From an uncultured Alphaproteobacteria bacterium (GTDB lineage: Bacteria > Pseudomonadota > Alphaproteobacteria > HIMB59 > GCA-002718135): a stretch of 64,000 nucleotides of DNA. The stretch covers positions 17,463 through 81,462 of the forward strand of contig CACNSY010000001.1 of the NCBI GenBank assembly GCA_902623255.1. Direction: 5' to 3'. Under the pieces are notes generated by a model. It was not told the origin of the DNA. It saw only the letters and a list, made by a program, of their open reading frames with translations, and did no database searches. Position 1 is the stretch's first letter. Each line of letters starts with the position of its first letter. Below, one piece after another: positions 5,056-53,048 of this stretch. A program made the position numbers and the translations under genes.

Positions 5056-5060
5056 GATAT

Positions 5061-6200: not shown

Positions 6201-6716
6201 TTAAAACTCCATTAAAGAATGTAACTCAATTCCTTTTTCAATTAATTTTTTATCACCATTTAATTCAGGTAAATTTATTATAAAGCCTGCTCCAACAATA
6301 TTTTTATCCTTGAACTTATTTATTAATTCTACTGCCGCAAGTGCAGTTCCGCCTGTTGCTAAAAGATCATCAATAATTAGTAAGTCTTTATGAGCATCTA
6401 AAGCATCAGTATGAATGTGCATTTCAGTTGATCCATATTCTAAATCGTATGAGACTTTGAAAGTATCAAATGGAAGTTTATGAGGCTTTCTCAACGGAAC
6501 AAATGCTGCATTTAAAAAATAAGCTATTGCCCCCGCCATAATGAATCCACGAGATTCTATACTTAAAACTGCATCTATTTTTTTATTTTGCCATGGTTTT
6601 ACCATATCATCAATGACTTGTTTAAAGTGTCCTGCATTTTGCAACAATGTTGTAATATCTCTAAATTGAATTCCTTCGACAGGATAATCAGCAATTGTTC
6701 GAACGTATTCTTTCAT
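6201..6716 (-). CDS. apt: adenine phosphoribosyltransferase
   Basis: 171 aa. Start MKEYVRTIADYPVEGIQFRDIT, and the PRPP-binding motif LLIIDDLLATGGT. Confidence 0.93.
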   Translation of the reverse strand: MKEYVRTIADYPVEGIQFRDITTLLQNAGHFKQVIDDMVKPWQNKKIDAVLSIESRGFIMAGAIAYFLNAAFVPLRKPHKLPFDTFKVSYDLEYGSTEMHIHTDALDAHKDLLIIDDLLATGGTALAAVELINKFKDKNIVGAGFIINLPELNGDKKLIEKGIELHSLMEF

Positions 6717-7276
6717 TAGTTTTTCTCAATGTCTTTTATATCAAATAAAGTAACAGGTGCAAAATTTGAAGAACAATCGTACGTTTTAGTATAAGGGAAT
6801 TTTAAAAATGAATTTGAGATTTGATTGCTAACATCTAATTTCTTTTCAAAGTGATTTATCAATAACTTATTTGGGTTTGCATGGGGTGCAAGATTACGAA
6901 TATATTTAATTGTATTTTCAATATTAGTTTTGTTTTCTCTACATAGTAAATAGGTAGCTGTTGCCATTGATCTTGAGACACCACACCAACAATGGATAAC
7001 AACATCTTCGTCATAAGTATAAGTAGAAGTAAAATTAGCTATTGAATTTACATGCTCTTCCCCAGGAAGAATTTGTGGTATTTCATCTGTATTCAATCGA
7101 AATATTTTATTATTGCTACTAATTTCAATAATATCGTCAAATCCTAACTTTAAATGATTTTTTACACCTTTGGGTGTTTCCGGAGCATATCCTGGATCAA
7201 TAACTGATATAAGATACTTAGGCTGTATGCTTTCACAAACATTAGATAAATCACTAAGAGAACAAACAATAATCAT
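6716..7276 (-). CDS. predicted protein-tyrosine/dual-specificity phosphatase-like protein
   Basis: 186 aa with a CX5R-type P-loop (HCWCGVSRS). Otherwise uncharacterised. Confidence 0.6.
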   Translation of the reverse strand: MIIVCSLSDLSNVCESIQPKYLISVIDPGYAPETPKGVKNHLKLGFDDIIEISSNNKIFRLNTDEIPQILPGEEHVNSIANFTSTYTYDEDVVIHCWCGVSRSMATATYLLCRENKTNIENTIKYIRNLAPHANPNKLLINHFEKKLDVSNQISNSFLKFPYTKTYDCSSNFAPVTLFDIKDIEKN

Positions 7277-7303
7277 AAAAAAAGGGTGGTATAAACCACC
7301 CTT
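7277..7303 (-). terminator. rho-independent terminator/attenuator after the ABC substrate-binding protein gene
   Basis: 9-bp GC-rich stem AAGGGTGGT (7282-7290) / ACCACCCTT (7295-7303) with a 4-nt loop. On the minus strand a U-run follows and ends exactly at the ATG of the next gene (7276). Confidence 0.75.
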
Positions 7304-7324
7304 GATAAAAGTAAATTAATTAAA

Positions 7325-8665
7325 CTACTCTGCAGTTGCATCAGCTAATATTGCATTAGCATCTTCATTTAATTGATTTAATGTTGAAATGATATCGTCA
7401 CCATTAATGATTGCTGCATAAGCTTTTTCAACCTCACCTCTAACTGAATAATAACCAGGAACAGATGGTTCACCTTTTCCGTATTGAACCATTGTTAATG
7501 ATTTATCATATTGAGGTAGTTCAGCTCTTTTTTTAGCAATTAATGGATGATCTGCAGAGGAGGTTCTAACAAAACCATATCCACTTTCAGTTGACCAAAC
7601 TGCTGAGTTCTCAGTGTTAGAAATATATTTCATCCACTGATATGCTGCCACCATTCTATTTGCATCGCCTGAATTTCCCATAATTAAACCTCCGCCATAT
7701 AGGTTAAGCACTGGTTCACTAGTGGTGTATGATATTGGGGCTACATCCCAATTGCCATTATAACCCTCTTCAATGGCTTTCTGGAAATAAGTAATACCAG
7801 ATGTAGAGCCTGCAGCAAATAAAACAGAACCTTGTCCTAAGTATTGCTGATCAGTATATTTACCTCTCGCAACTATTGCGCAACCTTTATTAGCCATACC
7901 TTGTATGAATTCCATAGCTTCAATGGCTTTAGAGCCATTGTAAATATACTGACCATTATCATAGTCAAATACATCACCTCCATGTGCAAATACCCATGCT
8001 GCAAAGTTACTTGCATCAGTATCTATTTCATATCCATAACTTGGAACATCTTCACCCATTTTACCGCTATAATCTTGATTAGTCGCTGCACATGCTGCTT
8101 CCGCAAAATCAGCAGGAGTTTTAGGAGCATCTAAACCAAGTTCCTTTAACCAATCTGAATTGTAATAAAGGATCTCTATTGATTTTCCAACTTCATGTAA
8201 AAGTTTTGGATTTCCATCAAAATATGGTGAAAAGCCAACAGTCCAGTTTGCACCCCAATCTTCTATATCATCTTGAGAAACACCCCATTTTTTACTATTT
8301 GCTAAAATATTTTGATCAATTGAAGCGCCAATTAAGTACATATCTGCAGCAGCATTACCATAACCTCTTGCAACGTCTGCTATATCTTTTGTTCCAGCAG
8401 CAGACATCATAGCTGATTGAACTTTCCCATAATGTCCTTTGTGAACAACATTAACTTTTATTCCTGTTTCAGCTTCAAATCTTTCAGCTCTTGCCATCAT
8501 TGCATCTAATCTTTCATCTGAATATTGTACCCAAAATTCAACAGTTTGACCTGAAGGATCTGCATTTTCAATATCTTGTGCTGTAATTGCGAATGATTGC
8601 GAGGAAATAAAAAATAAAGAAGCTAAGAAGAAATTTAAAATATATTTATAAAATTTCATAATCAC
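7325..8665 (-). CDS. ABC transporter substrate-binding protein, family 1 (CUT1 sugar / glycerol-3-phosphate-like)
   Basis: 446 aa with a signal peptide (…FFISSQSFA/ITAQ). The composition is typical of extracellular solute-binding family 1. Adjacent to two MalF/MalG-type permeases. Confidence 0.85.
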   Translation of the reverse strand: MIMKFYKYILNFFLASLFFISSQSFAITAQDIENADPSGQTVEFWVQYSDERLDAMMARAERFEAETGIKVNVVHKGHYGKVQSAMMSAAGTKDIADVARGYGNAAADMYLIGASIDQNILANSKKWGVSQDDIEDWGANWTVGFSPYFDGNPKLLHEVGKSIEILYYNSDWLKELGLDAPKTPADFAEAACAATNQDYSGKMGEDVPSYGYEIDTDASNFAAWVFAHGGDVFDYDNGQYIYNGSKAIEAMEFIQGMANKGCAIVARGKYTDQQYLGQGSVLFAAGSTSGITYFQKAIEEGYNGNWDVAPISYTTSEPVLNLYGGGLIMGNSGDANRMVAAYQWMKYISNTENSAVWSTESGYGFVRTSSADHPLIAKKRAELPQYDKSLTMVQYGKGEPSVPGYYSVRGEVEKAYAAIINGDDIISTLNQLNEDANAILADATAE

Positions 8666-8729
8666 CCCGTAAAAAATATTAATTAATATAGAGGTAAAAT
8701 TAAAGTTTTGTTACAAAAAATTTACTGAT

Positions 8730-9575
8730 TTATTCTTTTAATCCAAAGTTTGATATACTTTCTATGAATAACTTCTGGGTAAAAAAGTATAAAACTAAAA
8801 TCGGGAAAATTGCAATTAAGCAAGCAGCCATCAATAAATTAAAATTAGGTCCCACTTCTCTCACAAAACTATATATAGAAACTGTTACAGGATACCAATC
8901 ATCTCTAGTTAATATAAGTAAAGGCCAAGCAAAACTATTCCAAGCTATAATAAAAGTAAATAAAGAGACTGTCACAATAATAGGTTTGCTCATTGGGATT
9001 ACTACCTTGAGTAAAAAATTTAAATGAGAAGATCCATCAAGCCTTGCAGCATCCCATAATTCATTTGGTATCTTTTTAAAATATTGTCTTAATAAGAAAA
9101 TTACAAAAATATTACCCATAAATGGAACTGTTAAACCTTGAAGACTATTCATCCAAGAAGGTCCAAATGGCAATGGAATAATTTCCCCTCTAATTATTAA
9201 TAAATGAGGTAATAATGTAATAATTTCTGGAATCATCAATGAAAGTAACAACATGTAGAATATTATATTTTTAAATGGGAATTCTATTTTAGCAAAAGAA
9301 TACGCAGCTGGAATACTAGTTAATAAAACACCAATAACAATTATTGAACTTATTATTAAACTGTTAAATGTATAACGTTGAAATCTATTTGATGTCCAAA
9401 CTTCATAATAATTTTCAAACATCAATTTTTTAGGAAATAAATATTGATTTGATGCTTCTCCAGCTGTCATCAATGATGTTGAGATCATGTAAAAAAATGG
9501 GTAAATTGAAATAATAAAAACTATTAATAAAATTAAATAAGGTATCCTTGTTTCTGCATTAAGAATTTTAGTCAT
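8730..9575 (-). CDS. ABC transporter permease (MalG/UgpE-like)
   Basis: 281 aa, about 6 predicted TM segments, EAA-loop-like motif (WDAARLDGSSHLNFLLKVVIPMSKP). Confidence 0.88.
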   Translation of the reverse strand: MTKILNAETRIPYLILLIVFIISIYPFFYMISTSLMTAGEASNQYLFPKKLMFENYYEVWTSNRFQRYTFNSLIISSIIVIGVLLTSIPAAYSFAKIEFPFKNIIFYMLLLSLMIPEIITLLPHLLIIRGEIIPLPFGPSWMNSLQGLTVPFMGNIFVIFLLRQYFKKIPNELWDAARLDGSSHLNFLLKVVIPMSKPIIVTVSLFTFIIAWNSFAWPLLILTRDDWYPVTVSIYSFVREVGPNFNLLMAACLIAIFPILVLYFFTQKLFIESISNFGLKE

Positions 9576-10692
9576 AACTTAACCTTTTTCTAAAAATTAC
9601 ATATTGCGATATTGCTAAAATATTTAAAAGTATAAATAAAATTACTCCTTCAGCAGCAGCATAACCATATTTAACCCTTCCCCAAAAATGGTCAAAAATT
9701 TCAATTGTAACAACATCCATTGTATCTCCAGCAGATGAAGTTTGCATAACAAAAATACTATTGAAAGCCTGAAAAGTATTTATAAAACCTGTCAACATTA
9801 GAAAAAATATAATAGGCATTAATAGAGGTATAGTTATTTTAATAAATGTTTGCCAGCGACTAGCTCCCTCTGCTTTAGCTGCCTCATACAAGTCAGAAGG
9901 TATAATTGATAAACCCGCAAGTAAAATTATTGCGTAGTACCCAGTATAAGACCATATTCCATATATTATCGATGACATTAGAGCTAAACTTGGTCCAGCT
10001 AGTAGACCTTCTATTTTGATACCAAATAAAACTTCGGTAATTGATCTTTTATCAAATAACCACATTTGAGGCTCAAAACCAAATATTCCTATTAGTTGAT
10101 TTAAAAAAGAATTTTCAGCTTTACCAAATATTAAAAAAAATACTGCAGCACCCATTACTGCTGGAGTAATGTAAGGAAATAGTAAAATCATTTGAAAGAA
10201 TTGTTTACCAGCTAATTTTTGATACAAAGCAAATGCTATTATTAAACCTAATCCAACCTCAAAAATAATAGTAAAAAACGAATAATAAAAAGTATAAATA
10301 AGAGAATAAAGATAGTCTTCATCACCTGTTAAAAGCATTTTTTCCCAGTTGATATTAATTAATATTATTCCAATAATTAATATTACTATAGATAAAAATG
10401 CTAAATAGATTTTATTTTTTACTTTATTTTTAAATTCACTCCACAGTCCATAACTCAATATCAATAATAATAATCCTAAAACAAATAACCAAAAAGCTGG
10501 TATGTCTCCTAGTATTCTTTGGTAATTCTCAAATCCTAAAAATCTCCCTTTAAAAACTTTCCACTTGTGTACACTCATGTACATTCCAAAAAAAACAGGA
10601 AAAATTCCAAATAGACTGATTATTAAAAAAGCAGGAAGAATTAATAGATATCCTGTAAGTTTTTCTGAATGATTTAATAAGAATTTATTCAT
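9568..10692 (-). CDS. ABC transporter permease (MalF/UgpA-like, with extended N-terminus)
   Basis: 374 aa, multiple TM segments, EAA motif (YEAAKAEGASRWQTFIKITIPLLMP). 8-nt overlaps with both neighbours. Confidence 0.88.
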   Translation of the reverse strand: MNKFLLNHSEKLTGYLLILPAFLIISLFGIFPVFFGMYMSVHKWKVFKGRFLGFENYQRILGDIPAFWLFVLGLLLLILSYGLWSEFKNKVKNKIYLAFLSIVILIIGIILININWEKMLLTGDEDYLYSLIYTFYYSFFTIIFEVGLGLIIAFALYQKLAGKQFFQMILLFPYITPAVMGAAVFFLIFGKAENSFLNQLIGIFGFEPQMWLFDKRSITEVLFGIKIEGLLAGPSLALMSSIIYGIWSYTGYYAIILLAGLSIIPSDLYEAAKAEGASRWQTFIKITIPLLMPIIFFLMLTGFINTFQAFNSIFVMQTSSAGDTMDVVTIEIFDHFWGRVKYGYAAAEGVILFILLNILAISQYVIFRKRLSYD

Positions 10693-43706: not shown

Positions 43707-44882
43707 ATGAAAGAAAATAATTGGTTTGATCCATTTTATATTCAAAGTCATTTAAATGAAGAAGAAAGTAATATTCAGAAAAATGTAAGAGATTTTTGTA
43801 ATAATGAACTTAAACCTACAGTAGTTGAAAGAAACAGAAAAAATGAATTTGATCAAAGCCTCTATCCAAAATTTGGATCACTTGGAGTTTTAGGACAAAC
43901 AGTTAAAACACATGGTGGGTCTGGTACATCAAATTTAGCGTATGGAATTGTAGCATATGAATTTGAAAAAATAGATAGCAGCTATAGATCTTCAATATCT
44001 GTTCAATCTTCTCTTGTGATACATCCAATTAATGAATTTGGATCTCAGGAACAAAAAGATAAATACCTTCCTTCATTAATAAAAGGAGAAAAAATTGGTT
44101 GCTTTGGTTTGACAGAAAGCGAAGCTGGCTCTGATCCTACTTCAATGAAAACTTCATTTAAAAAAACTAAAGATGGATATATTATAAATGGATCTAAAAA
44201 CTGGATTACGAATGCTCCAATTGCTGACATATTTATTATTTGGGCTATTGAAGAAAACAAAGATCATAAAAGTATAAAAGGTTTTATAATTGAAAAAAAT
44301 ACTGAAGGATTAAATACTTCAACAATAGAAAATAAGACAAGCTTAAAAATTAGTCCAACTGGTCAAATAATTTTAAATAATGTTTTTGTTCCAAATAATT
44401 CGTGTTTGGAAAATACCGAAGGATGGAAATCAGTTTTTAGTTGTCTCAATAAAGCAAGATTTGGAATTAGCTGGGGTGTATTAGGTTCAGCATCCGAATG
44501 TTGGTTGATTGCAAAAGACTACGTAGAAAATAGAATTATGTTTAAAAAAACTTTAGCATCAAATCAATTAATTCAAAAAAAATTATCTGAGATGCAAATA
44601 GAAATAAATCTAGGACTAGCATCATGTCTTTTAAGCTCTAAAGCTCTAGATGAAGGAAAAGAAATCATTAATGCAATTAGTATTTTAAAAAAAAATAACT
44701 GTAAAAAATCTCTAGATATAATTAGAAATGCCCGTGATATGCTTGGTGCAAATGGCCTATTAGAAGAATATCATATCATGAGACATTTGGTTAATTTAGA
44801 AACTGTTAAAACTTACGAAGGTGCGGAGGATATTCATTCACTTATTTTAGGCAAAAATCAGACAGGAATTTCTAGTTTTTAA
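43707..44882 (+). CDS. gcdH: glutaryl-CoA dehydrogenase (acyl-CoA dehydrogenase family)
   Basis: 391 aa. ACAD motifs (GCFGLTESEAGSDP, YEGAEDIH) and a GcdH-like N-terminus (DPFYIQSHLNEEE). Confidence 0.85.
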   Translation: MKENNWFDPFYIQSHLNEEESNIQKNVRDFCNNELKPTVVERNRKNEFDQSLYPKFGSLGVLGQTVKTHGGSGTSNLAYGIVAYEFEKIDSSYRSSISVQSSLVIHPINEFGSQEQKDKYLPSLIKGEKIGCFGLTESEAGSDPTSMKTSFKKTKDGYIINGSKNWITNAPIADIFIIWAIEENKDHKSIKGFIIEKNTEGLNTSTIENKTSLKISPTGQIILNNVFVPNNSCLENTEGWKSVFSCLNKARFGISWGVLGSASECWLIAKDYVENRIMFKKTLASNQLIQKKLSEMQIEINLGLASCLLSSKALDEGKEIINAISILKKNNCKKSLDIIRNARDMLGANGLLEEYHIMRHLVNLETVKTYEGAEDIHSLILGKNQTGISSF

Positions 44883-44986: not shown

Positions 44987-46093
44987 ATGAAAAAAAACTT
45001 TAAAAGACGTGACTTCCTTAAAAAGGCAGGAATTGGTGCAGCAGCTGCAACAGCCGTTTCATCTTTCCCAGCTCCAGCTATTGCAGCTGATAGAATAGAA
45101 GTCAACTGCGTTGCTACTTGGGGTAGAGGCTATCCTGGACTAGGTACAGGAGCTGAAGCTGTTTCTCAAAGAATATCAGACTTAAGTGATGGTCGTATTG
45201 TTGTAAATCACTTTGCTGGTGGAGAAAGAGTAGGACCATTAGATGTATTCACAGAAGTTACATCTGGAAATGCTCAAATGTATAATAGTGCTGACTACTA
45301 TTGGATTGGACAACATCCAGGCTGGGGTTTCTTTGCAGCAGTTCCTTTTGGAATGATAGCAACTGAAATCAACGGATGGATACGACATGGTGGCGGACAA
45401 GAACTTTGGGATGAACTTGGTGATGAATTTGGTTTGAAAAACTTTATGGCTGGAAACTCTGGTGTTCAAATGGGTGGATGGTTTAATAAAGAAATTAATT
45501 CTCCAGATGATTTCAAAGGTCTTAAAATGAGAATTCCTGGATTAGGTGGAATGATGATGTCTAAACTTGGCTTATCTGTTGTAGGTGTGCCAGGTGGACA
45601 AATATATGAAAACTTAATCAATGGAACCATCGATGCAACAGAATGGGTAGGGCCATGGAATGATGAAAGATCAAGATTCTATGAAGCCGCAAAATATTAT
45701 TACTGGCCTGGATGTCATGAACCAGGAACATTAATAACACTAGGTTGTAATAAATCTTGGTTAACAAGTTTAAGTAAAACAGATCAAATGATTATTGAGC
45801 ATGCTTCAACAGTTCAAAATGAAAGAATGTTGACTGAATATAATGCAAATAATGGAGCTGCATTGCAGAGACTTGTTAATGATCATGGTGTTGAGCTAAG
45901 AGAATTCAACGAAGATGTTATCGACGCAATGGGTGAAGCAGCAGAACAACTGTATGAAGAACTTGCTGAAGGTAATGAACTAACTGGAAGAATTCTTGCA
46001 AGTTTTAGAAAATCAAGAAGTGAAATAAGTGGTTGGCTAGAAAAAGCTGACTCAGCTTTCTTTACTCAAAGAAATAGAGTACTTGAAGGTTAA
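44987..46093 (+). CDS. dctP: TRAP transporter substrate-binding protein (DctP family, mannitol/chloroaromatic-type) with Tat signal
   Basis: 368 aa. Twin-arginine signal KRRDFLKKAGIGAAAATA...AIA/AD and a GGGAGGA Shine-Dalgarno upstream. DctQ and DctM genes follow. Confidence 0.88.
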   Translation: MKKNFKRRDFLKKAGIGAAAATAVSSFPAPAIAADRIEVNCVATWGRGYPGLGTGAEAVSQRISDLSDGRIVVNHFAGGERVGPLDVFTEVTSGNAQMYNSADYYWIGQHPGWGFFAAVPFGMIATEINGWIRHGGGQELWDELGDEFGLKNFMAGNSGVQMGGWFNKEINSPDDFKGLKMRIPGLGGMMMSKLGLSVVGVPGGQIYENLINGTIDATEWVGPWNDERSRFYEAAKYYYWPGCHEPGTLITLGCNKSWLTSLSKTDQMIIEHASTVQNERMLTEYNANNGAALQRLVNDHGVELREFNEDVIDAMGEAAEQLYEELAEGNELTGRILASFRKSRSEISGWLEKADSAFFTQRNRVLEG

Positions 46094-46103
46094 AATTTAA
46101 ATC

Positions 46104-47054
46104 ATGTGGGGAGTTTACTCCCCACTTTTTTTTATGAATATCTCAAATATTTCTAAATTTTTTTCAATTTGTTTAATCTTAATAGTATTTGCATTTATAG
46201 TTAATAACTATTTAACTTTCGCAGGTGATTGGCCTGGAGCGTTTACAATATATAATTCAGCAAATATATATTCATCGTTTCAATTTTTTCTTTATCTATC
46301 AGCAATTATTTTTCCATTAATATTTATTTATTATAATAAAAAACTGGATAATTTGACTCTTGCCAATAACCTTGAAAGAGTTAATGATTTTATAATTAGA
46401 TTTGGTTTTTGGTCAGTATTAATAATAGGTATAATTGACGCCATAATTTCTTTTCTAATAATTGAAGGTTTCCTTGAACAAATGATTGGAAAAAGTTGGA
46501 ACATAAAATTTTCAAATAATTCTTTTCGAGCCCCATATGTTCATTTTCCCCTATTATTTGTATCATTAATATTTGCATATTACTTCAGAGCTCTCAATTT
46601 CTACTGGTTAGCATTTCTTGTTGTAATAGCAGAATTTCAAATTGTCATTTTAAGATTTGTTTTTTCATATGAACAAACTTTAATGAGCGATCTAGTGAGA
46701 TTTTGGTATGGAAGCTTATTTTTATTTGGAAGTTATTATACTTTGATTAAAGATGGTCATGTAAGAGTTGATGTTTTGTATACTAATTTTAGTGAAAAAA
46801 ATAAAGCGAGAGTAAATCTTTTTGGAAGTTTATTACTGGGCATTCCACTTTGCTTAACTGTATTCTTTCTTGGGATGTACTGTAAACAATGTGTTTTAAA
46901 TCAACCAATAATGAATTTTGAAACATCTCAAAGTACTCAAGGAATGAATATCAAATATTTAATGGCGGGTTTTTTAATAATATTTGCTCTTACAATGCTG
47001 ATACAATTTATAATTTATTCATTAAGAAGTTTAGAAGTAATTAGAAAAAATTAA
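46104..47054 (+). CDS. dctQ: TRAP transporter small permease (DctQ-like, enlarged)
   Basis: 316 aa from ATG 46104, or 306 aa if the real start is ATG 46134 just after the hairpin/U-tract. The DctQ hallmark LIKDGHVRVDVLY sits in the C-terminal half, and there are extra N-terminal TM segments. Confidence 0.8.
   Translation: MWGVYSPLFFMNISNISKFFSICLILIVFAFIVNNYLTFAGDWPGAFTIYNSANIYSSFQFFLYLSAIIFPLIFIYYNKKLDNLTLANNLERVNDFIIRFGFWSVLIIGIIDAIISFLIIEGFLEQMIGKSWNIKFSNNSFRAPYVHFPLLFVSLIFAYYFRALNFYWLAFLVVIAEFQIVILRFVFSYEQTLMSDLVRFWYGSLFLFGSYYTLIKDGHVRVDVLYTNFSEKNKARVNLFGSLLLGIPLCLTVFFLGMYCKQCVLNQPIMNFETSQSTQGMNIKYLMAGFLIIFALTMLIQFIIYSLRSLEVIRKN
46106..46133 (+). terminator. intra-operon hairpin plus U8 (attenuating terminator) between dctP and dctQ
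   Basis: Stem GTGGGGAG (46106-13) / CTCCCCAC (46118-25) with loop TTTA, followed by T8 (46126-33) that ends at an in-frame ATG (46134). Confidence 0.65.
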
Positions 47055-47056
47055 TA

Positions 47057-49699
47057 ATGGAATTATTTTTTCTTTTTTTATTAATATTTTTAATGGCATT
47101 TGCACTTGCTTCTGGATATCCATTAGCTTTTGCTCTTCCTGGTTCAGCTATTATATCAATATTTTTAGCTGGTTTAGCAGGATATTTAATTGAAGGTAAT
47201 CCAAACGAATATTTTATATCTGATGGTCCTTTTCAATGGCTTAATGCAGGAATAACAAATTTCCGAGGAGTATATTGGGAAGTAGAAAGAGATACATTGA
47301 TTGCAATACCTCTGTTTATTTTTATGGGAATAATGCTTGAAAAATCAAAAATTGCAGAAGACCTATTAATAAGTATGGGGCAATTATTTGGACCTATTCC
47401 AGGGGGATTAGGAATTTCTGTAATTTTTGTTGGCGCATTATTAGCTGCTACGACAGGCATTGTAGGGGCTACGGTAGTTGCGATGGGTTTAATTTCTTTA
47501 CCAGCAATGATGAAAAATAATTATAATAAATCACTTGCGTCTGGAATTGTTTGTTCTTCTGGTACACTTGGTCAAATAATTCCACCTTCAATTGTCCTTA
47601 TTATTTTGTCAGATCAATTAGCATCTGCTTCAGATGCAGCAGATAATATGAGAATAGAAAATTATAAAAACGTAACTGGTTCTACAAATATACCAAGTCA
47701 ATTTAGTGTAGATTCAGTCAGTGCTGGAAATATGTTTTTAGGAGCTTTCTTACCTGGTTTAGTTCTTGTTGGTCTATACATGTTATATGTTTTACTGATT
47801 GGAATATTTAAAAAAGAAGCAGTACCTCCAGTAGAATATGAAGGAAATTATGACAGAGATTTCTTTAGAAGAGTTTTTCTATCGCTTGTCCCGCCATTAG
47901 CATTAATTTTTGTAGTTTTAGGTTCAATATTACTTGGTATAGCAACAGTAAATCAAGCAGGTGCTATTGGTGCTGTGGGTGCAGGTGTGATGGGTGGTTA
48001 TAGATTGTATGATAAAAAAAACAAATATACACCAGCTTTAATAACTATAATTTCATTAATAGTAATAACCTTTATTGTAATAAATTTTCAACTTAATGTT
48101 AAAAATATTTCATCAACATCAGAAATGGTGGCTTTAGTAATTGCAATATTTGCAGTTATATTTTTACTTGTTGGTGTTGTTTGGAGTTTTTGGAGAACAT
48201 TTAAAATAAATAATGTTTTAAAAAATGTAATGATTGAAACAAGTTTAACTACTTCAATGGTTTTTATAATTCTGATTGGGGCTGCAATGTTAACAGCAGC
48301 GTTTAGAGGTTTTGGAGGTGAAGAAATAGTTAAGGATTTTCTCACTAGTCTTCCTGGAGGTTTTTGGACACAATTTATAGTTGTAATGGCAGTTATATTT
48401 GTACTAGGTTTTTTTTTAGATTTCATAGAAATTGCAATTGTTGTTGTTCCTATAGTTGCACCGATACTATTAGCTGAAACATCAGCAAATGTTACTGCAG
48501 TTTGGCTGGGTGTAATGATTGGTGTAAATATGCAAACTTCGTTTTTAACTCCACCATTTGGGTTTTCACTATTTTATCTAAGAGGGGTAGCACCAAAATC
48601 AATAAAAACGACTGAAATTTGGAAAGGTGCAAGTGTGTTTATTGTACTTCAATTAGTTGGTTTAGGTGTAGTTGGATATTTTCCACAATTAGTAAATTAT
48701 TTACCTCTTAGATCTTATTATTCATCAGAAGTTTCTCCTCCTCCAATTAATCCTAAACTTCAAGAATGTTTAATAGATTATTCTTATAATAAATATGAAG
48801 AAAATTTTTCTGAATCAATATTAATTACAAATGACCTAATGTCTTCTAATATTGATTTTTTACCAGAGAAACAAAATAAAAATTTTACTAATATGATTAA
48901 TAACATCAATGATTCAAAAAATTTAATAGAAGAAGTAAAATTATCACGTAAAAATTTTAACGATTACTCTATTAATTATAAGCCACTTCATACAAAAGTA
49001 AGGAATATTGAAAAAAATATTTATAAAAAATTATCAAAGATAGAAAAAATTAAAAAAGAAATTAGACTTGAAACTAAACTTAATGAAATTCAGAAGTTTG
49101 AAGAGAAAATTTTTGAATTAGAAAATGAAATTGAGAGTATAAAAATGACAATTCCTCTAAATTGGGAAGAGGAAAATAATAATTTCAAAACAATATTAGA
49201 TAAATTTAAGAAAAAGAAACTTAGTTATAATAAATCAGTAGATAACTCATTTAATGATTTACAAAAATTTATCAAAATTTTTCAAAATGCTGAAGAATTT
49301 TCTAAATTAGAAATTAATTTTAATGAGTTATTAAATAATGTTAATGAAGAGAGAGATGGAATTGAAGAAATAATTAAGAATTTTGAGAGATTATTTAATT
49401 CTTTCACTGACACTTCAAACATTACAAAACCAATCAAAAAAGCAAGAAAATTGTTGAAAAAAAATTACAATAAGAAAACAGAAGGATTAGCTTTAATTAA
49501 TGAAGCAAAAAAAATATATAATTTGGAAAAAAATTGGAGATTGGATGGTAATAAAATTATCTTAAGTGATTTAATTAAATTATCTGAAACTGGTAAAGAG
49601 ACTTTTGGATTAAGAAAACAAGAGAAACTTAATAAAGAGCAAGCTATTTATTTAGCTTCGTGTAAATCTGTACATGAAGATATTTCTTTATATTTTTAG
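47057..49699 (+). CDS. dctM: TRAP transporter large permease (DctM family) fused to a C-terminal hydrophilic coiled-coil-like extension of about 330 aa
   Basis: A single 880-codon open frame. Residues about 1-545 are polytopic and DctM-like (…FIFMGIMLEKS…, …MQTSFLTPPFGFSLFYLRGV…). Residues about 546-880 are K/E/N-rich with no TM segments. Confidence 0.85.
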   Translation: MELFFLFLLIFLMAFALASGYPLAFALPGSAIISIFLAGLAGYLIEGNPNEYFISDGPFQWLNAGITNFRGVYWEVERDTLIAIPLFIFMGIMLEKSKIAEDLLISMGQLFGPIPGGLGISVIFVGALLAATTGIVGATVVAMGLISLPAMMKNNYNKSLASGIVCSSGTLGQIIPPSIVLIILSDQLASASDAADNMRIENYKNVTGSTNIPSQFSVDSVSAGNMFLGAFLPGLVLVGLYMLYVLLIGIFKKEAVPPVEYEGNYDRDFFRRVFLSLVPPLALIFVVLGSILLGIATVNQAGAIGAVGAGVMGGYRLYDKKNKYTPALITIISLIVITFIVINFQLNVKNISSTSEMVALVIAIFAVIFLLVGVVWSFWRTFKINNVLKNVMIETSLTTSMVFIILIGAAMLTAAFRGFGGEEIVKDFLTSLPGGFWTQFIVVMAVIFVLGFFLDFIEIAIVVVPIVAPILLAETSANVTAVWLGVMIGVNMQTSFLTPPFGFSLFYLRGVAPKSIKTTEIWKGASVFIVLQLVGLGVVGYFPQLVNYLPLRSYYSSEVSPPPINPKLQECLIDYSYNKYEENFSESILITNDLMSSNIDFLPEKQNKNFTNMINNINDSKNLIEEVKLSRKNFNDYSINYKPLHTKVRNIEKNIYKKLSKIEKIKKEIRLETKLNEIQKFEEKIFELENEIESIKMTIPLNWEEENNNFKTILDKFKKKKLSYNKSVDNSFNDLQKFIKIFQNAEEFSKLEINFNELLNNVNEERDGIEEIIKNFERLFNSFTDTSNITKPIKKARKLLKKNYNKKTEGLALINEAKKIYNLEKNWRLDGNKIILSDLIKLSETGKETFGLRKQEKLNKEQAIYLASCKSVHEDISLYF

Positions 49700-50814
49700 T
49701 TAATTTTTTTTTCTATATCCATTACTATATGAATATAATCCATTGCATGACCTGATGGATTTTCTGTTACTTCCTCAAGATAAGCATTATAAAATTGATC
49801 GACAATTTGATTTATCTCATTAGGATTTCTTTTTTCTAATGCTGTTTTAAATACAGTTTCTGACCAACTTCTCATTGTTGGTATTAATGTTTCAGCATAT
49901 TCTCTTGATGACATAGTAGATTTATTTTTATTATAATGAACTTTAAAAGGGCAATCGGTAAACATAGTTTCGCATCTTTTAAGAATCAACCCAGATTTTG
50001 ATATTTCTGAATTAGGGTCATCAAAAGGTTTTCTAAATTCTTCAACAGTTCTATAATGTTGAGTAAAAGTAGCATTAACAAATTCTTCATTTGTAATAAT
50101 CCCTTTTTGCTCTAAATTTTTCCAATGTTTAGTAAAATTATTAAACATGTTATGACCGCCAGTGTTACCTAAATATCGACCCTTTTCATCTATTCCAAAG
50201 TTTATACAAATAAACCTTCCGCCTGGAACTAATTCACTTGATCTATTTAATAAAATTGTTTCCCAATCTTTTAGAGCTTGGATTTTAAATTGTTTTTTTT
50301 CTTCTTCATTTGAACCTACCATATGAACATGGTTATTTATCAAACATGGTCTTTCTGAAACGTAGTGCATTGCAGTCGCAGAGAATCCTAAGGATAAACT
50401 ATTATTAGACATCAATTGTTTATGAAAACCTGTACCACATCCGTGCACGAAAACATTTTCAAATTTATTCTGGTAAGCAAAATTATCATTACCTTGCATT
50501 CCTTGCATCATTCTAAATAAAACTGAAAAGTCATTAGATGCTAAATCAGTATACAACATTTCAATTTCTCTATTGTCTCCAGATTTTTTTATTTTTTCAA
50601 TAATATTAAACCACATTTCTTGACTTGTACCGCCATCAGCACTGCCAAAATCAGCTATTCTAAGCTTGTCAACTTTAGGAATATTTTTAAAGGCTTTTTC
50701 AATTAATACTTCCATTTTATCTATAGCATTTTTTGCCCCTACAGTTTTCTGAGAGTAATAACCCTCACCTTTCATCGATAAAACAGATTGTGTATTTAGA
50801 TTAGGTTTGTTCAT
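49696..50814 (-). CDS. SABATH-type SAM-dependent carboxyl methyltransferase family protein (Methyltransf_7-like)
   Basis: 372 aa with blocks collinear to plant salicylate/jasmonate carboxyl methyltransferases: LSMKGEGYYSQKT (cf. MKGGxGxxSY), RIADFGSADGGTS (cf. IADLGCSSGPN), LYTDLASNDFSVLF (cf. FLNDLPGNDFN), GCGTGFHKQLMSNNSLSLGFSATAMHYVS (cf. GVPGSFYGRLFPxxSLHFxHSSYSLHWLS). Confidence 0.75.
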   Translation of the reverse strand: MNKPNLNTQSVLSMKGEGYYSQKTVGAKNAIDKMEVLIEKAFKNIPKVDKLRIADFGSADGGTSQEMWFNIIEKIKKSGDNREIEMLYTDLASNDFSVLFRMMQGMQGNDNFAYQNKFENVFVHGCGTGFHKQLMSNNSLSLGFSATAMHYVSERPCLINNHVHMVGSNEEEKKQFKIQALKDWETILLNRSSELVPGGRFICINFGIDEKGRYLGNTGGHNMFNNFTKHWKNLEQKGIITNEEFVNATFTQHYRTVEEFRKPFDDPNSEISKSGLILKRCETMFTDCPFKVHYNKNKSTMSSREYAETLIPTMRSWSETVFKTALEKRNPNEINQIVDQFYNAYLEEVTENPSGHAMDYIHIVMDIEKKIN

Positions 50815-50855
50815 ATAATAATTTTAAACCTATTGAATTATAATAAAAGTATTTA

Positions 50856-53048
50856 TTAATCAAATTTAAGATTTTTATTAAAATATTTAGGGACTTTTTT
50901 TCCCGACTGAGCTCTTTTTCCCATCCAAAACTCAACATCTTCTAACTTTCTATTTTTAGAACCAGTGCTCCATTCTAATCCATCTTCAATAGTTAACTGA
51001 GTGACATCGGATAAAAAATCGTCTTTCTTAATTTTAATTAATTGAACTCCTCCACCCTTTTGTAATTTTGGCAAAGCATCAATTTCAAAAATTAACATTT
51101 TTTGTAAATTTGTAACGCAAGCTATGTGTTTTTTTGAAAGATTTAATACTTTAATAACTACATCATTATTTTTTAAATTAAATAATTGCTTACCTTTCTT
51201 TTGGTTTGTTACTAGAGTTTCAGTATTACTAATAAATCCTTTGCCATTTTTCGATACAATTAAGAGTTCTTGATCGATTGATGAAAGTAATCCAGCAATT
51301 TTATCTTTAGGCATACTATCAACAAAATAAATAAATGATTTAGGATTACTATTTCCACCTGGTAGAATATTTGGATCTATAGTGTAAACTTTACCAGAAG
51401 AAACAAACAAAAGTATTTTTTGGTTTGAATTTAAATTAACTGAAAATAGATTTTCTTTTTTTATTTTTTCAATTTCCTTTTCATCAGTTATCTCTTTAAT
51501 TCTCTTGAGCTGAAAATCTTTATTAATGATAATGGTAAATTTTTCAATTTCTTTAAATTCATCAATGCTAATATCAATATCATTATTTTGTTCTGATGAA
51601 ATTACAGATTTTCTATCCTTTATATCACTATCTAAATCATTTTTTATAAGATCTAATTCACTTACTATAAATTTATCTAATGTTTTTTTATCTTTTATTA
51701 ATTTATTAAGGTATTTTAATTCTTCATTTAATTTTTCGATTTCATCTTTAATATTTTTTTCATCAATCTTTCTAAGAGATCCTAAACGCATACTTAAAAT
51801 TGAATCACATTGTAAATCAGATAATTTATATTTTTTAATTAATTCTTTTTTGGGATTATCTTTTGTTCTTATTATTTTAATTATAGAATTTAAATTTTTA
51901 AAGACGATTTGATAACCTTTAAGAATTTCTAGTCTTTTTTTAATTTTTTCTATATTAAATTTTGATTTTCTTTTAATTGTAACTTTTCGATGTTCTAAAA
52001 AATTAGAAAGTATTTCAATAATTCCAATTTGTTTAGGCTCTATACCATCAATTAAAACATTAAAATTACAAGAGTACTTAATTGATAGGTCAGTTAATTT
52101 AAAACATAAGCTTATTAATTTTTCAGCATCAATATTTCTGGTCTTTGGTTTTAAGACAATTCTAATATTTTCATCTGACTCATCAACTACATCATCCAAT
52201 GGTAATTTTTTATTATTGATGTTATTAGCCAGTTGTTCGATTATCTTAACTTTATTAACTTGATATGGAATTTCAGTAATAATGATTTGATACAAACCAT
52301 TTTTTAATTCTTCTATTTGATATTTAGCATTAATATTAAATGAGCCCTTGCCATTCTTATAAATTTGCTTTTTTTCATTACTATCTAAAATTATTTCACC
52401 ACCTGTAGGAAGATCTGGTCCATTAATGATTTTTAAAATTTCAGTTAATGAAGTTTTATCTTTTTTTATTATCAGTTTTATAGCATCAATTAATTCTACC
52501 ACATTATGAGGAGGAATATTTGTAGCCATGCCTACAGCTATTCCCATTGCTCCATTAATTAAAATATTAGGAAGTTGAGATGGTAGAACCACAGGTTCTA
52601 AATTTTGACCATCATAATTATCTTTAAAATCTACTGAATTTTCTTCGATACCATCAAAAAAATAATTTGTATAATCTTGTAATCTTGCCTCTGTGTATCG
52701 CATTGCTGCAGGATTATCACCATCAATATTTCCAAAATTACCCTGGCCATCTACTAATGTAATTCTTGTAGAAAAATTCTGAGCCATTCTTACCAAACTA
52801 TCATATATAGCTTGATCACCATGTGGGTGAAATTTACCCATTACATCACCAACAATTCTAGCACATTTTTTATAACTTGAACTTTTGAAAAGTTTTAGTT
52901 GATACATTGAATAAATTATTCTGCGGTGAACGGGTTTTAATCCATCCCTCACATCAGGTAAAGATCTTGAAACAATAGTTGATATTGCATAAGAAAGATA
53001 TTTTTCACTAAGAATAGTATCTAAATTGGATTCAATTATTTTGTTCAT
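50856..53048 (-). CDS. parC: DNA topoisomerase IV subunit A
   Basis: 730 aa. RSLPDVRDGLKPVHRRI, the active-site region AAMRYTEARL, and a size typical of ParC rather than GyrA. Confidence 0.88.
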   Translation of the reverse strand: MNKIIESNLDTILSEKYLSYAISTIVSRSLPDVRDGLKPVHRRIIYSMYQLKLFKSSSYKKCARIVGDVMGKFHPHGDQAIYDSLVRMAQNFSTRITLVDGQGNFGNIDGDNPAAMRYTEARLQDYTNYFFDGIEENSVDFKDNYDGQNLEPVVLPSQLPNILINGAMGIAVGMATNIPPHNVVELIDAIKLIIKKDKTSLTEILKIINGPDLPTGGEIILDSNEKKQIYKNGKGSFNINAKYQIEELKNGLYQIIITEIPYQVNKVKIIEQLANNINNKKLPLDDVVDESDENIRIVLKPKTRNIDAEKLISLCFKLTDLSIKYSCNFNVLIDGIEPKQIGIIEILSNFLEHRKVTIKRKSKFNIEKIKKRLEILKGYQIVFKNLNSIIKIIRTKDNPKKELIKKYKLSDLQCDSILSMRLGSLRKIDEKNIKDEIEKLNEELKYLNKLIKDKKTLDKFIVSELDLIKNDLDSDIKDRKSVISSEQNNDIDISIDEFKEIEKFTIIINKDFQLKRIKEITDEKEIEKIKKENLFSVNLNSNQKILLFVSSGKVYTIDPNILPGGNSNPKSFIYFVDSMPKDKIAGLLSSIDQELLIVSKNGKGFISNTETLVTNQKKGKQLFNLKNNDVVIKVLNLSKKHIACVTNLQKMLIFEIDALPKLQKGGGVQLIKIKKDDFLSDVTQLTIEDGLEWSTGSKNRKLEDVEFWMGKRAQSGKKVPKYFNKNLKFD

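What the first reader, a model, noticed from the sequence alone, without database searches (positions are those of the whole stretch)
49696..50814. Plant-type SABATH carboxyl methyltransferase homologue, with its stop codon overlapping the TRAP permease stop
The 372-aa protein is collinear with the signature blocks of plant salicylic/jasmonic acid carboxyl methyltransferases (Methyltransf_7). The matches are MKGEGYYSQ, RIADFGSADGGTS, YTDLASNDF, and GCGTGFHKQLMSNNSLSLGFSATAMHYVS. This family is mainly a plant small-molecule family (volatile methyl esters, N-methylation of xanthines). Bacterial members are few and mostly uncharacterised, and I know of no assigned function in SAR11-like bacteria. 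The gene converges on dctM with overlapping stop codons (TAG 49697-99 on the plus strand, TAA 49698-96 on the minus strand), so no terminator can sit between them. TRAP binding proteins typically recognise carboxylates. A functional link between carboxylate uptake and methyl-ester formation or detoxification is possible, but it is purely inferential because the genes are not co-transcribed.
Basis: partly seen in the sequence, partly recalled or inferred. Interest (0 to 1): 0.6.

Follow-up and report, generated by a model that had tools for sequence, protein, structure and literature searches.

The report
SAR11 methyltransferase paired with keto-acid importer
This is a real, conserved SAR11 gene for a small-molecule methyltransferase of the family best known from plant scent and hormone chemistry, and comparison with other bacteria shows it is kept next to a 2-oxo-acid uptake system, so it probably methylates what that transporter brings in; the substrate and product are untested.

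Summary
ORF 49696..50814 (-) encodes a 372-aa protein that matches Pfam PF03492 (E=5e-33, full length). Its AlphaFold model (pLDDT 90.5) matches only SABATH structures well (TM 0.71-0.87), best the mycobacterial fatty-acid O-methyltransferase. Its stop codon overlaps the dctM stop in a 4-nt tail-to-tail overlap.

The protein is not "plant-type", and bacterial relatives are not few: they form at least 1,428 clusters at 50% identity. It belongs to an uncharacterised subfamily that keeps the SAM site but has Ala in place of the carboxylate-anchoring Gln.

The suspected link to the TRAP system is now supported. The same methyltransferase sits beside the orthologous TRAP in three orientations: convergent in SAR11, as an operon in SAR116, divergent in Arenicellales. 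More distant relatives have an orphan dctP directly downstream.

The binding protein keeps all six TakP residues that bind Na+ and pyruvate. Relatives are fused or adjacent to MSOX-type oxidases, Phe/Leu-type amino-acid dehydrogenases and Ldh_2 reductases.

Best reading: it methylates a TRAP-imported 2-oxo (or 2-imino) acid in the cytoplasm. Whether the methyl goes to O or N, and why, is unknown. I class it as a new variant of a known kind, of moderate interest.

The parts
49696..50814 (-). SABATH-fold SAM-dependent methyltransferase gene (372 aa), 'Y-type' subgroup (G129/Y151/H253)
   Evidence: ORF. PF03492 E=5.3e-33. AF2 model pLDDT 90.5, and Foldseek TM 0.84-0.87 to 5f2k. SAM-site residues conserved. 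dN/dS 0.08-0.20.
49696..49699 (.). 4-nt tail-to-tail overlap of the two stop codons (TAG of dctM, TAA of the methyltransferase)
   Evidence: Sequence. Identical arrangement in 27 related loci; 0-11 nt spacing in more distant SAR11-type loci.
50815..50855 (-). 41-nt spacer between the parC stop and the methyltransferase start; no promoter-like site found on this strand
   Evidence: ORF coordinates; promoter and terminator scan.
47057..49699 (+). dctM, TRAP large permease (880 aa): permease core of about 540 aa plus a C-terminal extension of about 340 aa (48677-49696)
   Evidence: PF06808 E=2e-63 and TIGR00786. The extension is conserved in SAR116 and Arenicellales, with two invariant Cys and one invariant His. 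It occurs in TRAP M subunits of many phyla.
46104..47054 (+). dctQ, TRAP small membrane subunit (316 aa, unusually long)
   Evidence: PF04290 E=4e-11, matching residues 180-305 only.
44987..46093 (+). dctP, TakP-type 2-oxo-acid binding protein with a twin-arginine signal peptide
   Evidence: PF03480. PDB 2hzk/2hzl TakP E=1e-72 and 7ug8 'Ketoacid-binding protein'. All six Na+/pyruvate ligands conserved: Y105, Q161, R182, E219, W220, E245.
43707..44882 (+). glutaryl-CoA dehydrogenase gene, directly upstream of dctP on the same strand
   Evidence: Acyl-CoA_dh domains. Best PDB matches are all glutaryl-CoA dehydrogenases, E about 1e-122. Adjacency conserved in SAR11-type loci.
50856..53048 (-). 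parC-like topoisomerase IV subunit A gene, upstream neighbour on the methyltransferase strand (lepB-rnc-era-recO-parC-MT string)
   Evidence: ORF. The orthologue in L041 carries PF00521 DNA_topoisoIV. Synteny across SAR11-type loci.

Best explanation
The gene encodes a functional cytoplasmic SAM-dependent small-molecule methyltransferase with the SABATH fold. It belongs to a large, uncharacterised, mainly proteobacterial subfamily. It works together with the adjacent TakP-type TRAP transporter.

Proposed mechanism:
1. The periplasmic DctP captures a hydrophobic 2-oxo monocarboxylate together with Na+.
2. DctQM moves it into the cell.
3. The methyltransferase transfers the methyl group of SAM onto that compound, or onto its immediate 2-imino or 2-amino derivative.

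By family precedent the most likely product is a carboxyl methyl ester. Because the canonical carboxylate-anchoring Gln is missing, N-methylation cannot be excluded.

Shown here: family, fold, an intact SAM site, purifying selection, conserved linkage to the TRAP system, and a 2-oxo-acid signature in the binding protein. Inferred: the identity of the substrate, the atom that is methylated, and the physiological purpose. Given the cost of SAM, the purpose is more likely detoxification, or production of a specialised or volatile compound, than bulk catabolism.
For: Family and fold:
- PF03492 E=5.3e-33.
- AF2 pLDDT 90.5, pTM 0.90.
- Foldseek hits 1-29 are all SABATH enzymes (TM 0.66-0.87). The next class I methyltransferases reach at most 0.45.
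- SAM ligands are kept: K15, T24, D55, D90, L91, F130.
- Real gene under selection: dN/dS 0.08-0.20. One 90%-identity cluster alone holds 983 member sequences.

Linkage to the TRAP system:
- 33 of 33 SAR11-type loci have dctM convergent on the methyltransferase.
- In SAR116 (L033) dctP-dctQ-dctM-MT lie on one strand with a 28-nt gap.
- In Arenicellales (L044, L046) and metagenome locus L134 the TRAP genes are divergent from the methyltransferase, with dctP closest to it. DctP is 59% and DctM 52% identical to the window's proteins over their full length.
- W-type relatives carry an orphan TakP-family dctP 81-235 nt downstream in 9 loci (plus L043).
- One SAG (L039) lacks the stretch from methyltransferase codon ~50 to dctP codon ~12, which looks like a single deletion.

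Substrate class:
- DctP keeps all six TakP ligands for Na+ and pyruvate, and a pocket like that of the keto-acid binders.
- Relatives are fused to an MSOX/NikD-like oxidase and a Phe/Leu-dehydrogenase-like domain, or lie next to DAO and Ldh_2 genes. All these enzymes make or reduce 2-oxo or 2-imino acids.
- Pocket positions are invariant across the subfamily (T147, H150, F206, M223, W317, Y360; F224 in 53 of 55), which implies a narrow substrate class.
Against: - There is no biochemical evidence for any member of this subfamily.
- The Gln that positions the carboxylate in SAMT, LAMT and FAMT is Ala, and Trp151 is Tyr, so ester formation is not assured.
- Some orthologues (56-64% identical) have no TRAP nearby: L031/L032 and L035.
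- Orthologous TRAP systems with the same binding-site residues occur without the methyltransferase: L049-L051. The coupling is therefore facultative.
- The fusion and M19/p550 evidence comes from the W-type subgroup (33-46% identical), not from the SAR11 type. Ldh_2 and DAO do occur beside some Y-type genes (L053-L055).
- No Ldh_2 or DAO partner was found in this window.
- Spending one SAM per imported small acid is costly, and a neutral ester would tend to leak out of the cell.
- In SAR11 the two genes are convergent and cannot share a transcript.
Confidence: 0.5

Rival explanations
1. It is an N-methyltransferase acting on a ring-nitrogen 2-carboxylate: a cyclic imino acid or pyridine-2-carboxylate such as proline, pipecolate, piperideine-2-carboxylate or picolinate. 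It would make N-methyl imino acids or betaines such as homarine. The TRAP system would supply the precursor.
For: - The carboxylate-anchoring Gln is replaced by Ala. SABATH enzymes include N-methyltransferases with the same fold.
- Partner enzymes act on secondary amines or cyclic imines. The fused oxidase domain matches MSOX, NikD and MTOX. NikD turns piperideine-2-carboxylate into picolinate (established knowledge, recalled). Ldh_2 is the family of the DpkA imino-acid reductases (recalled), and Ldh_2 genes sit beside the methyltransferase.
- An MttB-family gene lies 2 kb upstream in L053-L055. The MttB family includes quaternary-amine methyltransferases (recalled). An OYE-like oxidoreductase (Oxidored_FMN) gene converges on the methyltransferase in L045; I read it as resembling N-methylproline demethylase StcD from memory.
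- The Phreatobacter dctP next to the methyltransferase shares 13 of 15 site residues with BB0280/4yic. I recall that structure as a picolinate complex, but could not verify this.
- Homologues occur in a jellyfish and a red alga.
- No homarine synthase turned up in the paper library.
Against: - The SAR11, SAR116 and Arenicellales DctPs have the Tyr-Tyr keto-acid signature, not the BB0280 one.
- Most of the supporting contexts belong to the W-type subgroup.
- An N-methyl-amine oxidase fused to an N-methyltransferase for the same amine would form a futile cycle.
- The neighbouring p550/DUF3726 genes could not be equated with the published homarine catabolic genes.
Confidence: 0.22
2. The adjacency to the TRAP genes in SAR11 is a by-product of genome compaction. 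The methyltransferase is simply the last gene of the lepB-rnc-era-recO-parC string and acts on an unrelated endogenous metabolite.
For: - The gene lies 41 nt downstream of parC on the same strand, with no promoter-like site in between.
- Synteny with parC holds in all SAR11-type loci.
- The methyltransferase and dctM are convergent and cannot be co-transcribed.
- Some orthologues lack a TRAP neighbour, and some TRAP orthologues lack the methyltransferase.
Against: - The parC neighbourhood is confined to SAR11, and another gene (3-hydroxybutyrate dehydrogenase) is inserted between them in L041.
- The TRAP or dctP neighbourhood recurs in SAR116, Arenicellales, a Hyphomicrobiales MAG, Phreatobacter and many metagenome loci, in convergent, co-directional and divergent arrangements.
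Confidence: 0.15
3. It is a fatty-acid O-methyltransferase like its closest solved relative, M. marinum FAMT, making fatty-acid methyl esters.
For: Best sequence and structure match: 5f2k, E=5e-21 for the single sequence, 5e-46 for the profile, TM 0.84-0.87.
Against: - Only 21% identity in the structural alignment.
- The substrate residues of FAMT are not kept: Q31 becomes A27, W151 becomes T147, Q154 becomes H150.
- The predicted pocket positions are aromatic, polar and invariant, which does not suggest a lipid tunnel.
- No lipid-metabolism genes recur among the neighbours.
Confidence: 0.05
4. It is a plant-like aromatic-acid carboxyl methyltransferase (benzoate, salicylate, indole-3-acetate, phenylacetate).
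For: - Aromatic-lined pocket, and an H-Y/W motif at the position of the SABATH 'HW' motif.
- One database source names a homologue 'indole-3-acetate O-methyltransferase'.
Against: - The Gln anchor is missing.
- Plant enzymes are much more distant than FAMT.
- The linked binding protein has the 2-oxo-acid plus Na+ site rather than an aromatic-acid site.
- The database name is an automatic annotation.
Confidence: 0.08

Closest known systems
Mycobacterium marinum fatty acid O-methyltransferase (FAMT; PDB 5f2k, 5f2n, 5f2o)
   Same: A bacterial member of Methyltransf_7 with the same fold (TM 0.84-0.87, rmsd 2.6-3.5 A) and the same SAM-binding residues. It is the best sequence match among solved structures.
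   Different: Only about 21% identical. The substrate residues Q31, W151 and Q154 of FAMT are A27, T147 and H150 here. The C-terminal H-x-M-D-Y-x-H motif, invariant in the subfamily, falls outside the part of FAMT that the profile aligned. The genomic partners are transporters and amino/oxo-acid enzymes, not lipid genes.
Plant SABATH methyltransferases (SAMT 1m6e, IAMT 3b5i, LAMT 6c8r; caffeine-type N-methyltransferases 2efj, 2eg5, 6lyh)
   Same: Pfam family, two-domain fold (TM 0.66-0.80), SAM site, and a His at the position of SAMT Met150, as in IAMT and LAMT.
   Different: E-values of only 1e-10 to 1e-5 for the single sequence. Gln25 is Ala, and Trp151 is Tyr in the SAR11 type. The gene is prokaryotic, chromosomal and linked to a transporter.
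TakP TRAP transporter of Rhodobacter sphaeroides (2-oxo-acid uptake; PDB 2hzk/2hzl; PMC1839085)
   Same: The partner DctP is 38% identical to TakP (E=1e-72) and keeps Tyr100, Gln156, Arg177, Glu214, Trp215 and Glu240, the residues that bind pyruvate and Na+. Its pocket is similarly hydrophobic.
   Different: No methyltransferase has been described with TakP. Here DctM carries a C-terminal extension of about 340 aa and DctQ is long. The ligand has not been measured.
Carboxyl methyltransferases paired with a pathway as a protecting or detoxifying step (BioC in biotin synthesis; trans-aconitate methyltransferase Tam). Recalled from general knowledge.
   Same: The concept: SAM-dependent esterification of a small acid in order to change its fate.
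   Different: They are unrelated class I families. BioC appears only as a weak structural hit (TM 0.39-0.41). No esterase partner is conserved here; the single alpha/beta-hydrolase neighbour (L035) is a haloalkane dehalogenase.

Membership tests
SABATH / Methyltransf_7 (PF03492) | Full-length match to the family HMM above the curated threshold | tested here: met
   E=5.3e-33, 115 bits against a cut-off of 29.8; residues 47-368 match model positions 12-334 of 335.
SABATH / Methyltransf_7 (PF03492) | Two-domain fold (Rossmann core plus helical cap), shared specifically with solved SABATH enzymes | tested here: met
   AF2 model pLDDT 90.5, pTM 0.90. The 29 best Foldseek hits are all SABATH enzymes (TM 0.66-0.87). 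The next hits, generic class I methyltransferases, reach at most 0.45.
SABATH / Methyltransf_7 (PF03492) | SAM-binding residues (SAMT K10, S22, D57, D98, L99, S129, F130) | tested here: met
   They correspond to K15, T24, D55, D90, L91, G129 and F130. T24, D55, D90 and F130 are invariant in 55 subfamily sequences. The SAMT sequence was verified against 1m6e. The list of SAMT residues is recalled from Zubieta et al. 2003.
SABATH carboxyl O-methyltransferase subclass | The Gln25/Trp151 pair that orients the substrate carboxylate towards SAM | tested here: not met
   Gln25 corresponds to A27 (Ala in 54 of 55). Trp151 corresponds to Y151 in the SAR11 type (Tyr in 25, Trp in 30 of the 55). Membership of the carboxyl subclass is therefore not claimed.
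SABATH carboxyl O-methyltransferase subclass | SAM-dependent formation of a methyl ester | not testable with these tools
   Needs an enzyme assay.
Mycobacterial FAMT-type fatty-acid O-methyltransferase | Conservation of the fatty-acid binding residues (Q31, W151, Q154, W155) | tested here: not met
   They correspond to A27, T147, H150 and Y151.
TakP-type 2-oxo-acid TRAP binding protein (for the partner gene dctP) | The six residues that bind pyruvate and the cation (Y100, Q156, R177, E214, W215, E240) | tested here: met
   Y105, Q161, R182, E219, W220 and E245. The same holds in the SAR116, L041 and Arenicellales orthologues.
TakP-type 2-oxo-acid TRAP binding protein (for the partner gene dctP) | Measured binding of 2-oxo acids | not testable with these tools
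   Needs DSF or ITC. The single-sequence AF2 model was unusable (pLDDT 34.6).
Homarine catabolic operon homABCDER (considered for the neighbours of W-type relatives) | HomA with an FAD-binding motif next to HomB, plus a peptidase, an aldehyde dehydrogenase and a regulator (PMC13236597) | tested here: inconclusive
   A peptidase (M19), an aldehyde dehydrogenase and a LysR regulator are present. However, the conserved 550-aa protein has no Pfam, NCBIfam or PDB match and no N-terminal Rossmann motif. The paper's gene tables were not available.

The most novel reading that the evidence does not exclude
This uncharacterised SABATH subfamily may be an 'import-and-methylate' module, and could include the missing biosynthetic N-methyltransferase for marine N-methyl imino-acid or pyridinium zwitterions such as homarine. 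On this reading, the three-domain proteins (Phe/Leu-type dehydrogenase, NikD/MSOX-like oxidase, methyltransferase) would run amino acid to cyclic imine to aromatic acid to N-methyl product. SAR11, SAR116 and Arenicellales would methylate a 2-oxo or 2-imino acid delivered by their TakP-type TRAP system. That would make the most abundant marine bacteria a source of a methylated infochemical, osmolyte or volatile ester.
Probability: 0.15. Interest if true: 0.8.

Novelty: new variant of a known kind. Interest (0 to 1): 0.55.

Why it matters
SAR11 genomes are extremely streamlined, so a conserved methyltransferase under purifying selection, present in very many ocean sequences, should do something that matters. 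2-Oxo acids are common photochemical and algal products in surface seawater (general knowledge). If the most abundant marine bacteria methylate them, that would be an unrecognised fate for this carbon pool and a possible source of volatile esters or methylated zwitterions.

More broadly, the work defines a large subfamily with an altered active site and conserved partners: TakP-type binding proteins, Ldh_2 reductases, MSOX-type oxidases and an unknown 550-aa/DUF3726 pair. The subfamily has at least 1,428 clusters and includes bacteria, a red alga and a jellyfish. No member has an assigned function. This turns a vague annotation ('SAM-dependent methyltransferase') into a short list of substrates that can be tested.

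Tried and rejected
1. DMSP synthesis (methionine to 4-methylthio-2-oxobutyrate, then the hydroxy acid, then S-methylation). It fits the chemistry, but the known S-methyltransferase DsyG is PF08241 and TpMMT is its 31%-identical relative, not Methyltransf_7, and nothing here points to sulfur. Kept only as a remote possibility.

2. CheR-like methylation of the DctM C-terminal extension. The extension occurs in TRAP permeases of many phyla, and three distant examples have no methyltransferase nearby. Rejected.

3. Equating the neighbours of W-type relatives with the homarine hom operon. This could not be verified.

4. The SDR next to the gene in L041 as a 2-oxo-acid reductase. It is a 3-hydroxybutyrate dehydrogenase. 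Rejected.

5. The alpha/beta-hydrolase neighbour in L035 as a methylesterase. It scores as a haloalkane dehalogenase.

6. Structure of the DctP, wanted in order to read PDB ligand titles. The single-sequence AF2 model failed (pLDDT 34.6) and the Foldseek output was meaningless. The ligands of 4pet, 5cm6 and 4yic therefore remain recollections.

7. The systematic SAR11 binding-protein study (PMC11485210) and the SAR11 paralogue study (PMC11796062). Neither says anything about this TRAP system or the methyltransferase.

8. Database names for the protein: only 'SAM-dependent methyltransferase' or 'hypothetical protein'.

9. Searches of the window for Ldh_2, DAO, M19 or p550 partners: none found.

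10. Literature search for a homarine synthase: none in the library.

Full report
**1. The observation**

The plus-strand ORF 47057..49699 ends with TAG at 49697-49699. The minus-strand ORF ends with TAA, read from tta at 49696-49698. The two genes therefore overlap tail to tail by 4 nt and no intergenic DNA is left.

The same 4-nt overlap is found in 27 closely related single-cell genomes. More distant SAR11-type loci have abutting stops (0 nt) or an 11-nt gap. The overlap is thus one state of a very tight convergent junction, not a conserved element in itself. The region has about 21-39% G+C. Its nearest relatives are uncultured marine alphaproteobacterial single-cell genomes. Assigning it to SAR11 is my inference from composition, synteny and the kind of samples involved.

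**2. Family and fold**

The protein matches Pfam PF03492 (Methyltransf_7) end to end: E=5.3e-33, 115 bits against a cut-off of 29.8. No NCBIfam model matches it.

Among solved structures the best sequence match is the Mycobacterium marinum fatty-acid O-methyltransferase (5f2k, E=5e-21). Plant SABATH enzymes follow at 1e-10 to 1e-5. With a subfamily profile the values are 5e-46 and 4e-27.

An AlphaFold2 model built on 55 diverse homologues is confident (pLDDT 90.5, pTM 0.90). In Foldseek its 29 best PDB matches are all SABATH enzymes: FAMT at TM 0.82-0.87, and plant O- and N-methyltransferases at 0.66-0.80. After these the list drops to generic class I methyltransferases at 0.45 or less. Membership of the SABATH family is therefore established. 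'Plant-type' is not: the protein is closer to the bacterial enzyme.

**3. Size and nature of the subfamily**

An exhaustive HMMER search of 1.84 billion cluster representatives finds 1,428 clusters at E<=0.001 and 143 at E<=1e-30. One 90%-identity cluster of the SAR11 protein alone holds 983 member sequences. Named carriers include Phreatobacter, Mesorhizobium, Arenicellales IMCC55707, Shewanella surugensis, the red alga Porphyridium purpureum and the jellyfish Rhopilema esculentum. Database names are only 'SAM-dependent methyltransferase' or 'hypothetical protein'.

Pairwise dN/dS between the window gene and seven relatives is 0.08-0.20, so the gene is under purifying selection.

**4. Active site**

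I aligned the subfamily with SAMT and with FAMT residues 23-353. The SAMT sequence was verified residue by residue against 1m6e.

- The SAM-binding positions are kept: K15, T24, D55, D90, L91, G/S129, F130.
- The Gln that holds the substrate carboxylate in SAMT (Q25), FAMT (Q31) and LAMT is Ala in 54 of 55 sequences.
- The partner Trp (SAMT W151) is Tyr in the SAR11 type.
- Positions that line the SAMT pocket are invariant here: T147, H150, F206, M223, W317 and Y360. F224 is present in 53 of 55.
- A C-terminal H356-x-M-D-Y-x-H362 motif is also invariant, even in fused and eukaryotic members.

This pattern indicates one narrow substrate class and a pocket that is aromatic and polar, not a lipid tunnel. 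The C-terminal half of this alignment is less certain, and I could not inspect the model coordinates.

Two subgroups emerge:
- 'Y-type' (G129, Y151, H or Y at 253): SAR11, SAR116, Arenicellales and other marine lineages.
- 'W-type' (S/T129, W151, F253): the Rhizobiales, soil and freshwater members. The fusion proteins and the jellyfish protein also have W151 but Y at 253.

**5. The link with the TRAP system**

- In all 33 SAR11-type loci with enough flanking DNA, the gene order is lepB-rnc-era-recO-parC-MT, converging on dctM-dctQ-dctP-acd.
- In a SAR116 genome (L033) the orthologous dctP, dctQ, dctM (883 aa) and the methyltransferase lie on one strand, with 28 nt between dctM and the methyltransferase.
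- In the gammaproteobacterial Arenicellales (L044, L046), and in metagenome locus L134, the TRAP operon is divergent from the methyltransferase, with dctP about 250-280 nt away. Their DctP and DctM are 59% and 52% identical to the window's proteins over the full length, including the DctM C-terminal extension.
- A Hyphomicrobiales MAG (L037) has a different TRAP system upstream on the same strand.
- In W-type relatives, 8 of 41 informative metagenome loci have an orphan TakP-family dctP 96-235 nt downstream on the same strand. Three more loci have a full dctPQM. Phreatobacter cathodiphilus has the orphan dctP arrangement too.
- One single-cell genome (L039) lacks exactly the stretch from methyltransferase codon ~50 to dctP codon ~12. 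This is either one deletion that removed both units or an assembly artefact.

Adjacency that survives three different orientations across two proteobacterial classes is the classic signature of functional coupling. By contrast, the parC neighbourhood is confined to SAR11 and is interrupted by a 3-hydroxybutyrate dehydrogenase gene in L041.

The coupling is not obligatory. Orthologues in L031/L032 and L035 have no TRAP nearby. TRAP orthologues with identical binding-site residues occur without the methyltransferase.

**6. What the transporter carries**

The DctP matches R. sphaeroides TakP (2hzk/2hzl) at E=1e-72 and a marine 'Ketoacid-binding protein' (7ug8) at 6e-67. The TakP paper defines the ligand contacts: Arg177 and Tyr100 hold the pyruvate carboxylate, while Gln156, Glu214, the Trp215 carbonyl and Glu240 bind a Na+ ion that bridges the keto and carboxylate oxygens (PMC1839085).

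All six residues are conserved here (Y105, Q161, R182, E219, W220, E245). The side-chain pocket is hydrophobic, as in the keto-acid binders. The SAR116, L041 and Arenicellales proteins have the same signature.

The Phreatobacter dctP instead resembles Bordetella BB0280 (4yic) at 13 of 15 positions. I recall 4yic as a picolinate complex and 4pet and 5cm6 as pyruvate complexes, but I could not verify these ligands.

Upstream of dctP lies a glutaryl-CoA dehydrogenase gene (E about 1e-122 to solved GCDHs). In Arenicellales the TRAP operon continues into an aldehyde dehydrogenase and an acyl-CoA synthetase. One methyltransferase-free TRAP relative is followed by an isopropylmalate/homocitrate-synthase-type gene. 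All of this fits oxo-acid catabolism but does not name the compound.

**7. Enzyme partners of the subfamily**

- Relatives 33-38% identical are fused to a DAO domain, alone or together with an ELFV amino-acid dehydrogenase domain. Examples are Shewanella surugensis (1,170 aa) and Porphyridium purpureum (876 aa).
- The oxidase domain matches monomeric sarcosine oxidase, NikD and N-methyltryptophan oxidase. The dehydrogenase domain matches Phe, Leu and Trp dehydrogenases.
- A Rhizobium plasmid has the methyltransferase and a DAO gene as separate neighbours.
- Y-type genes in L053-L055 are followed, after 8 nt, by an Ldh_2 gene, and in L054 and L055 then by a DAO gene. An MttB-family gene and a binding-protein gene lie upstream.
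- In W-type loci the conserved operon is (M19 dipeptidase)-Ldh_2-p550-DUF3726-MT-(dctP). Among 41 informative loci, p550 occurs in 22, Ldh_2 in 21 and M19 in 16.

These partners produce or reduce 2-oxo or 2-imino acids. This is the same chemical class that the TakP-type binding protein recognises.

**8. Interpretation**

The best-supported mechanism is a two-step module. The TRAP system imports a hydrophobic 2-oxo (or cyclic 2-imino) monocarboxylate with Na+, and the methyltransferase methylates it, or its immediate derivative, in the cytoplasm.

By family precedent I favour a carboxyl methyl ester. The missing Gln anchor and the amine-oxidase partners keep N-methylation of an imino or pyridine 2-carboxylate as a serious rival.

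The purpose is inferred only. SAM is too costly for bulk catabolism, so detoxification or production of a specialised, possibly volatile or zwitterionic, product is more plausible.

Confidence:
- SABATH membership: about 0.97.
- A real functional link with the TRAP system: about 0.7.
- A 2-oxo or 2-imino acid as substrate: about 0.5.
- An ester as product: about 0.35.

**9. Novelty**

The fold and the general chemistry are known. Four things appear to be new: the subfamily, its altered anchor residues, its conserved coupling to a TakP-type importer in the dominant marine bacterioplankton, and its fusions. None of these was found in the papers searched. I class the finding as a new variant of a known kind, of moderate interest. 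It would rise sharply if the product proves to be an ecologically relevant methylated compound.

Noticed in passing
window 48677-49696 (+), 3' part of dctM: DctM carries a C-terminal extension of about 340 aa with no Pfam, NCBIfam or PDB match. It is conserved in SAR116 and Arenicellales. It starts with an invariant SPPPxNPxLQxC motif just after the last membrane segment and ends with WR...GLRxQ...EQ...C...H..SLxF. Two Cys and one His are invariant, which suggests a disulfide or a metal site. It occurs in TRAP M subunits of many phyla (191 hits), including Desulfobacterota and Planctomycetota.
   Followed up: partly
window 46104-47054 (+): DctQ is 316 aa, about twice the usual size. Only residues 180-305 match the DctQ model, so the first 180 or so residues form an uncharacterised hydrophobic extension.
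   Followed up: no
L039 8001-8300 (SAG AG-899-B06): Relative to the window, the stretch from methyltransferase codon ~50 to dctP codon ~12 is missing, so most of the methyltransferase and all of dctM and dctQ are gone. This is either a natural co-loss of the module or a single-cell amplification or assembly artefact.
   Followed up: partly
L043, L045, L047 and 22 of 41 informative metagenome loci (L057-L126): A conserved operon of unknown function in Rhizobiales, soil and freshwater bacteria: (M19 dipeptidase)-Ldh_2-550-aa protein with no detectable domain-DUF3726-methyltransferase-(orphan TakP-family dctP). LysR and aldehyde dehydrogenase genes often lie nearby. It resembles the published homarine (hom) operon in gene types, but I could not show that it is the same.
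   Followed up: partly
P0222 (Shewanella surugensis, 1170 aa), P0241 (Porphyridium purpureum, 876 aa), P0189, P0207, P0211, P0248: Multidomain proteins that join a Phe/Leu-type amino-acid dehydrogenase, an MSOX/NikD-like FAD oxidase and this methyltransferase. They look like a complete small pathway in one polypeptide.
   Followed up: partly
L053-L055, about 3200-10300: Y-type methyltransferase in the cluster MttB-family methyltransferase - SBP_bac_5 - MT - Ldh_2 - DAO. MTHFR and corrinoid/pterin methyltransferase genes lie upstream, which suggests a link to quaternary-amine or N-methyl metabolism.
   Followed up: no
L021 (NYXO01000065.1): A 7-kb contig filed under a 'Methanobacteriota archaeon' MAG carries parC-MT-dctMQP-acd at 85-99% identity to the SAR11-type window. 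This is most likely a binning contaminant.
   Followed up: no
L041 7142-7924: In a more distant SAR11-type lineage a 3-hydroxybutyrate dehydrogenase gene is inserted between parC and the methyltransferase. This shows that the parC-MT junction is not fixed.
   Followed up: partly
window 49656-49679 (+): A terminator-like hairpin followed by a T-rich tail lies inside the last codons of dctM, 18 nt before its stop. It is one of two such sites in 1.8 kb, against 0.4 expected. It could end dctM transcripts within the coding overlap zone.
   Followed up: no
P0319 / P0566 (Rhopilema esculentum, 15-Mb scaffold): A jellyfish nuclear genome encodes a stand-alone homologue, 37% identical to the window protein, with the invariant pocket motif. 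It could be a horizontally acquired gene or contamination. Scyphozoan jellyfish are reported to contain homarine (title and hit counts).
   Followed up: no
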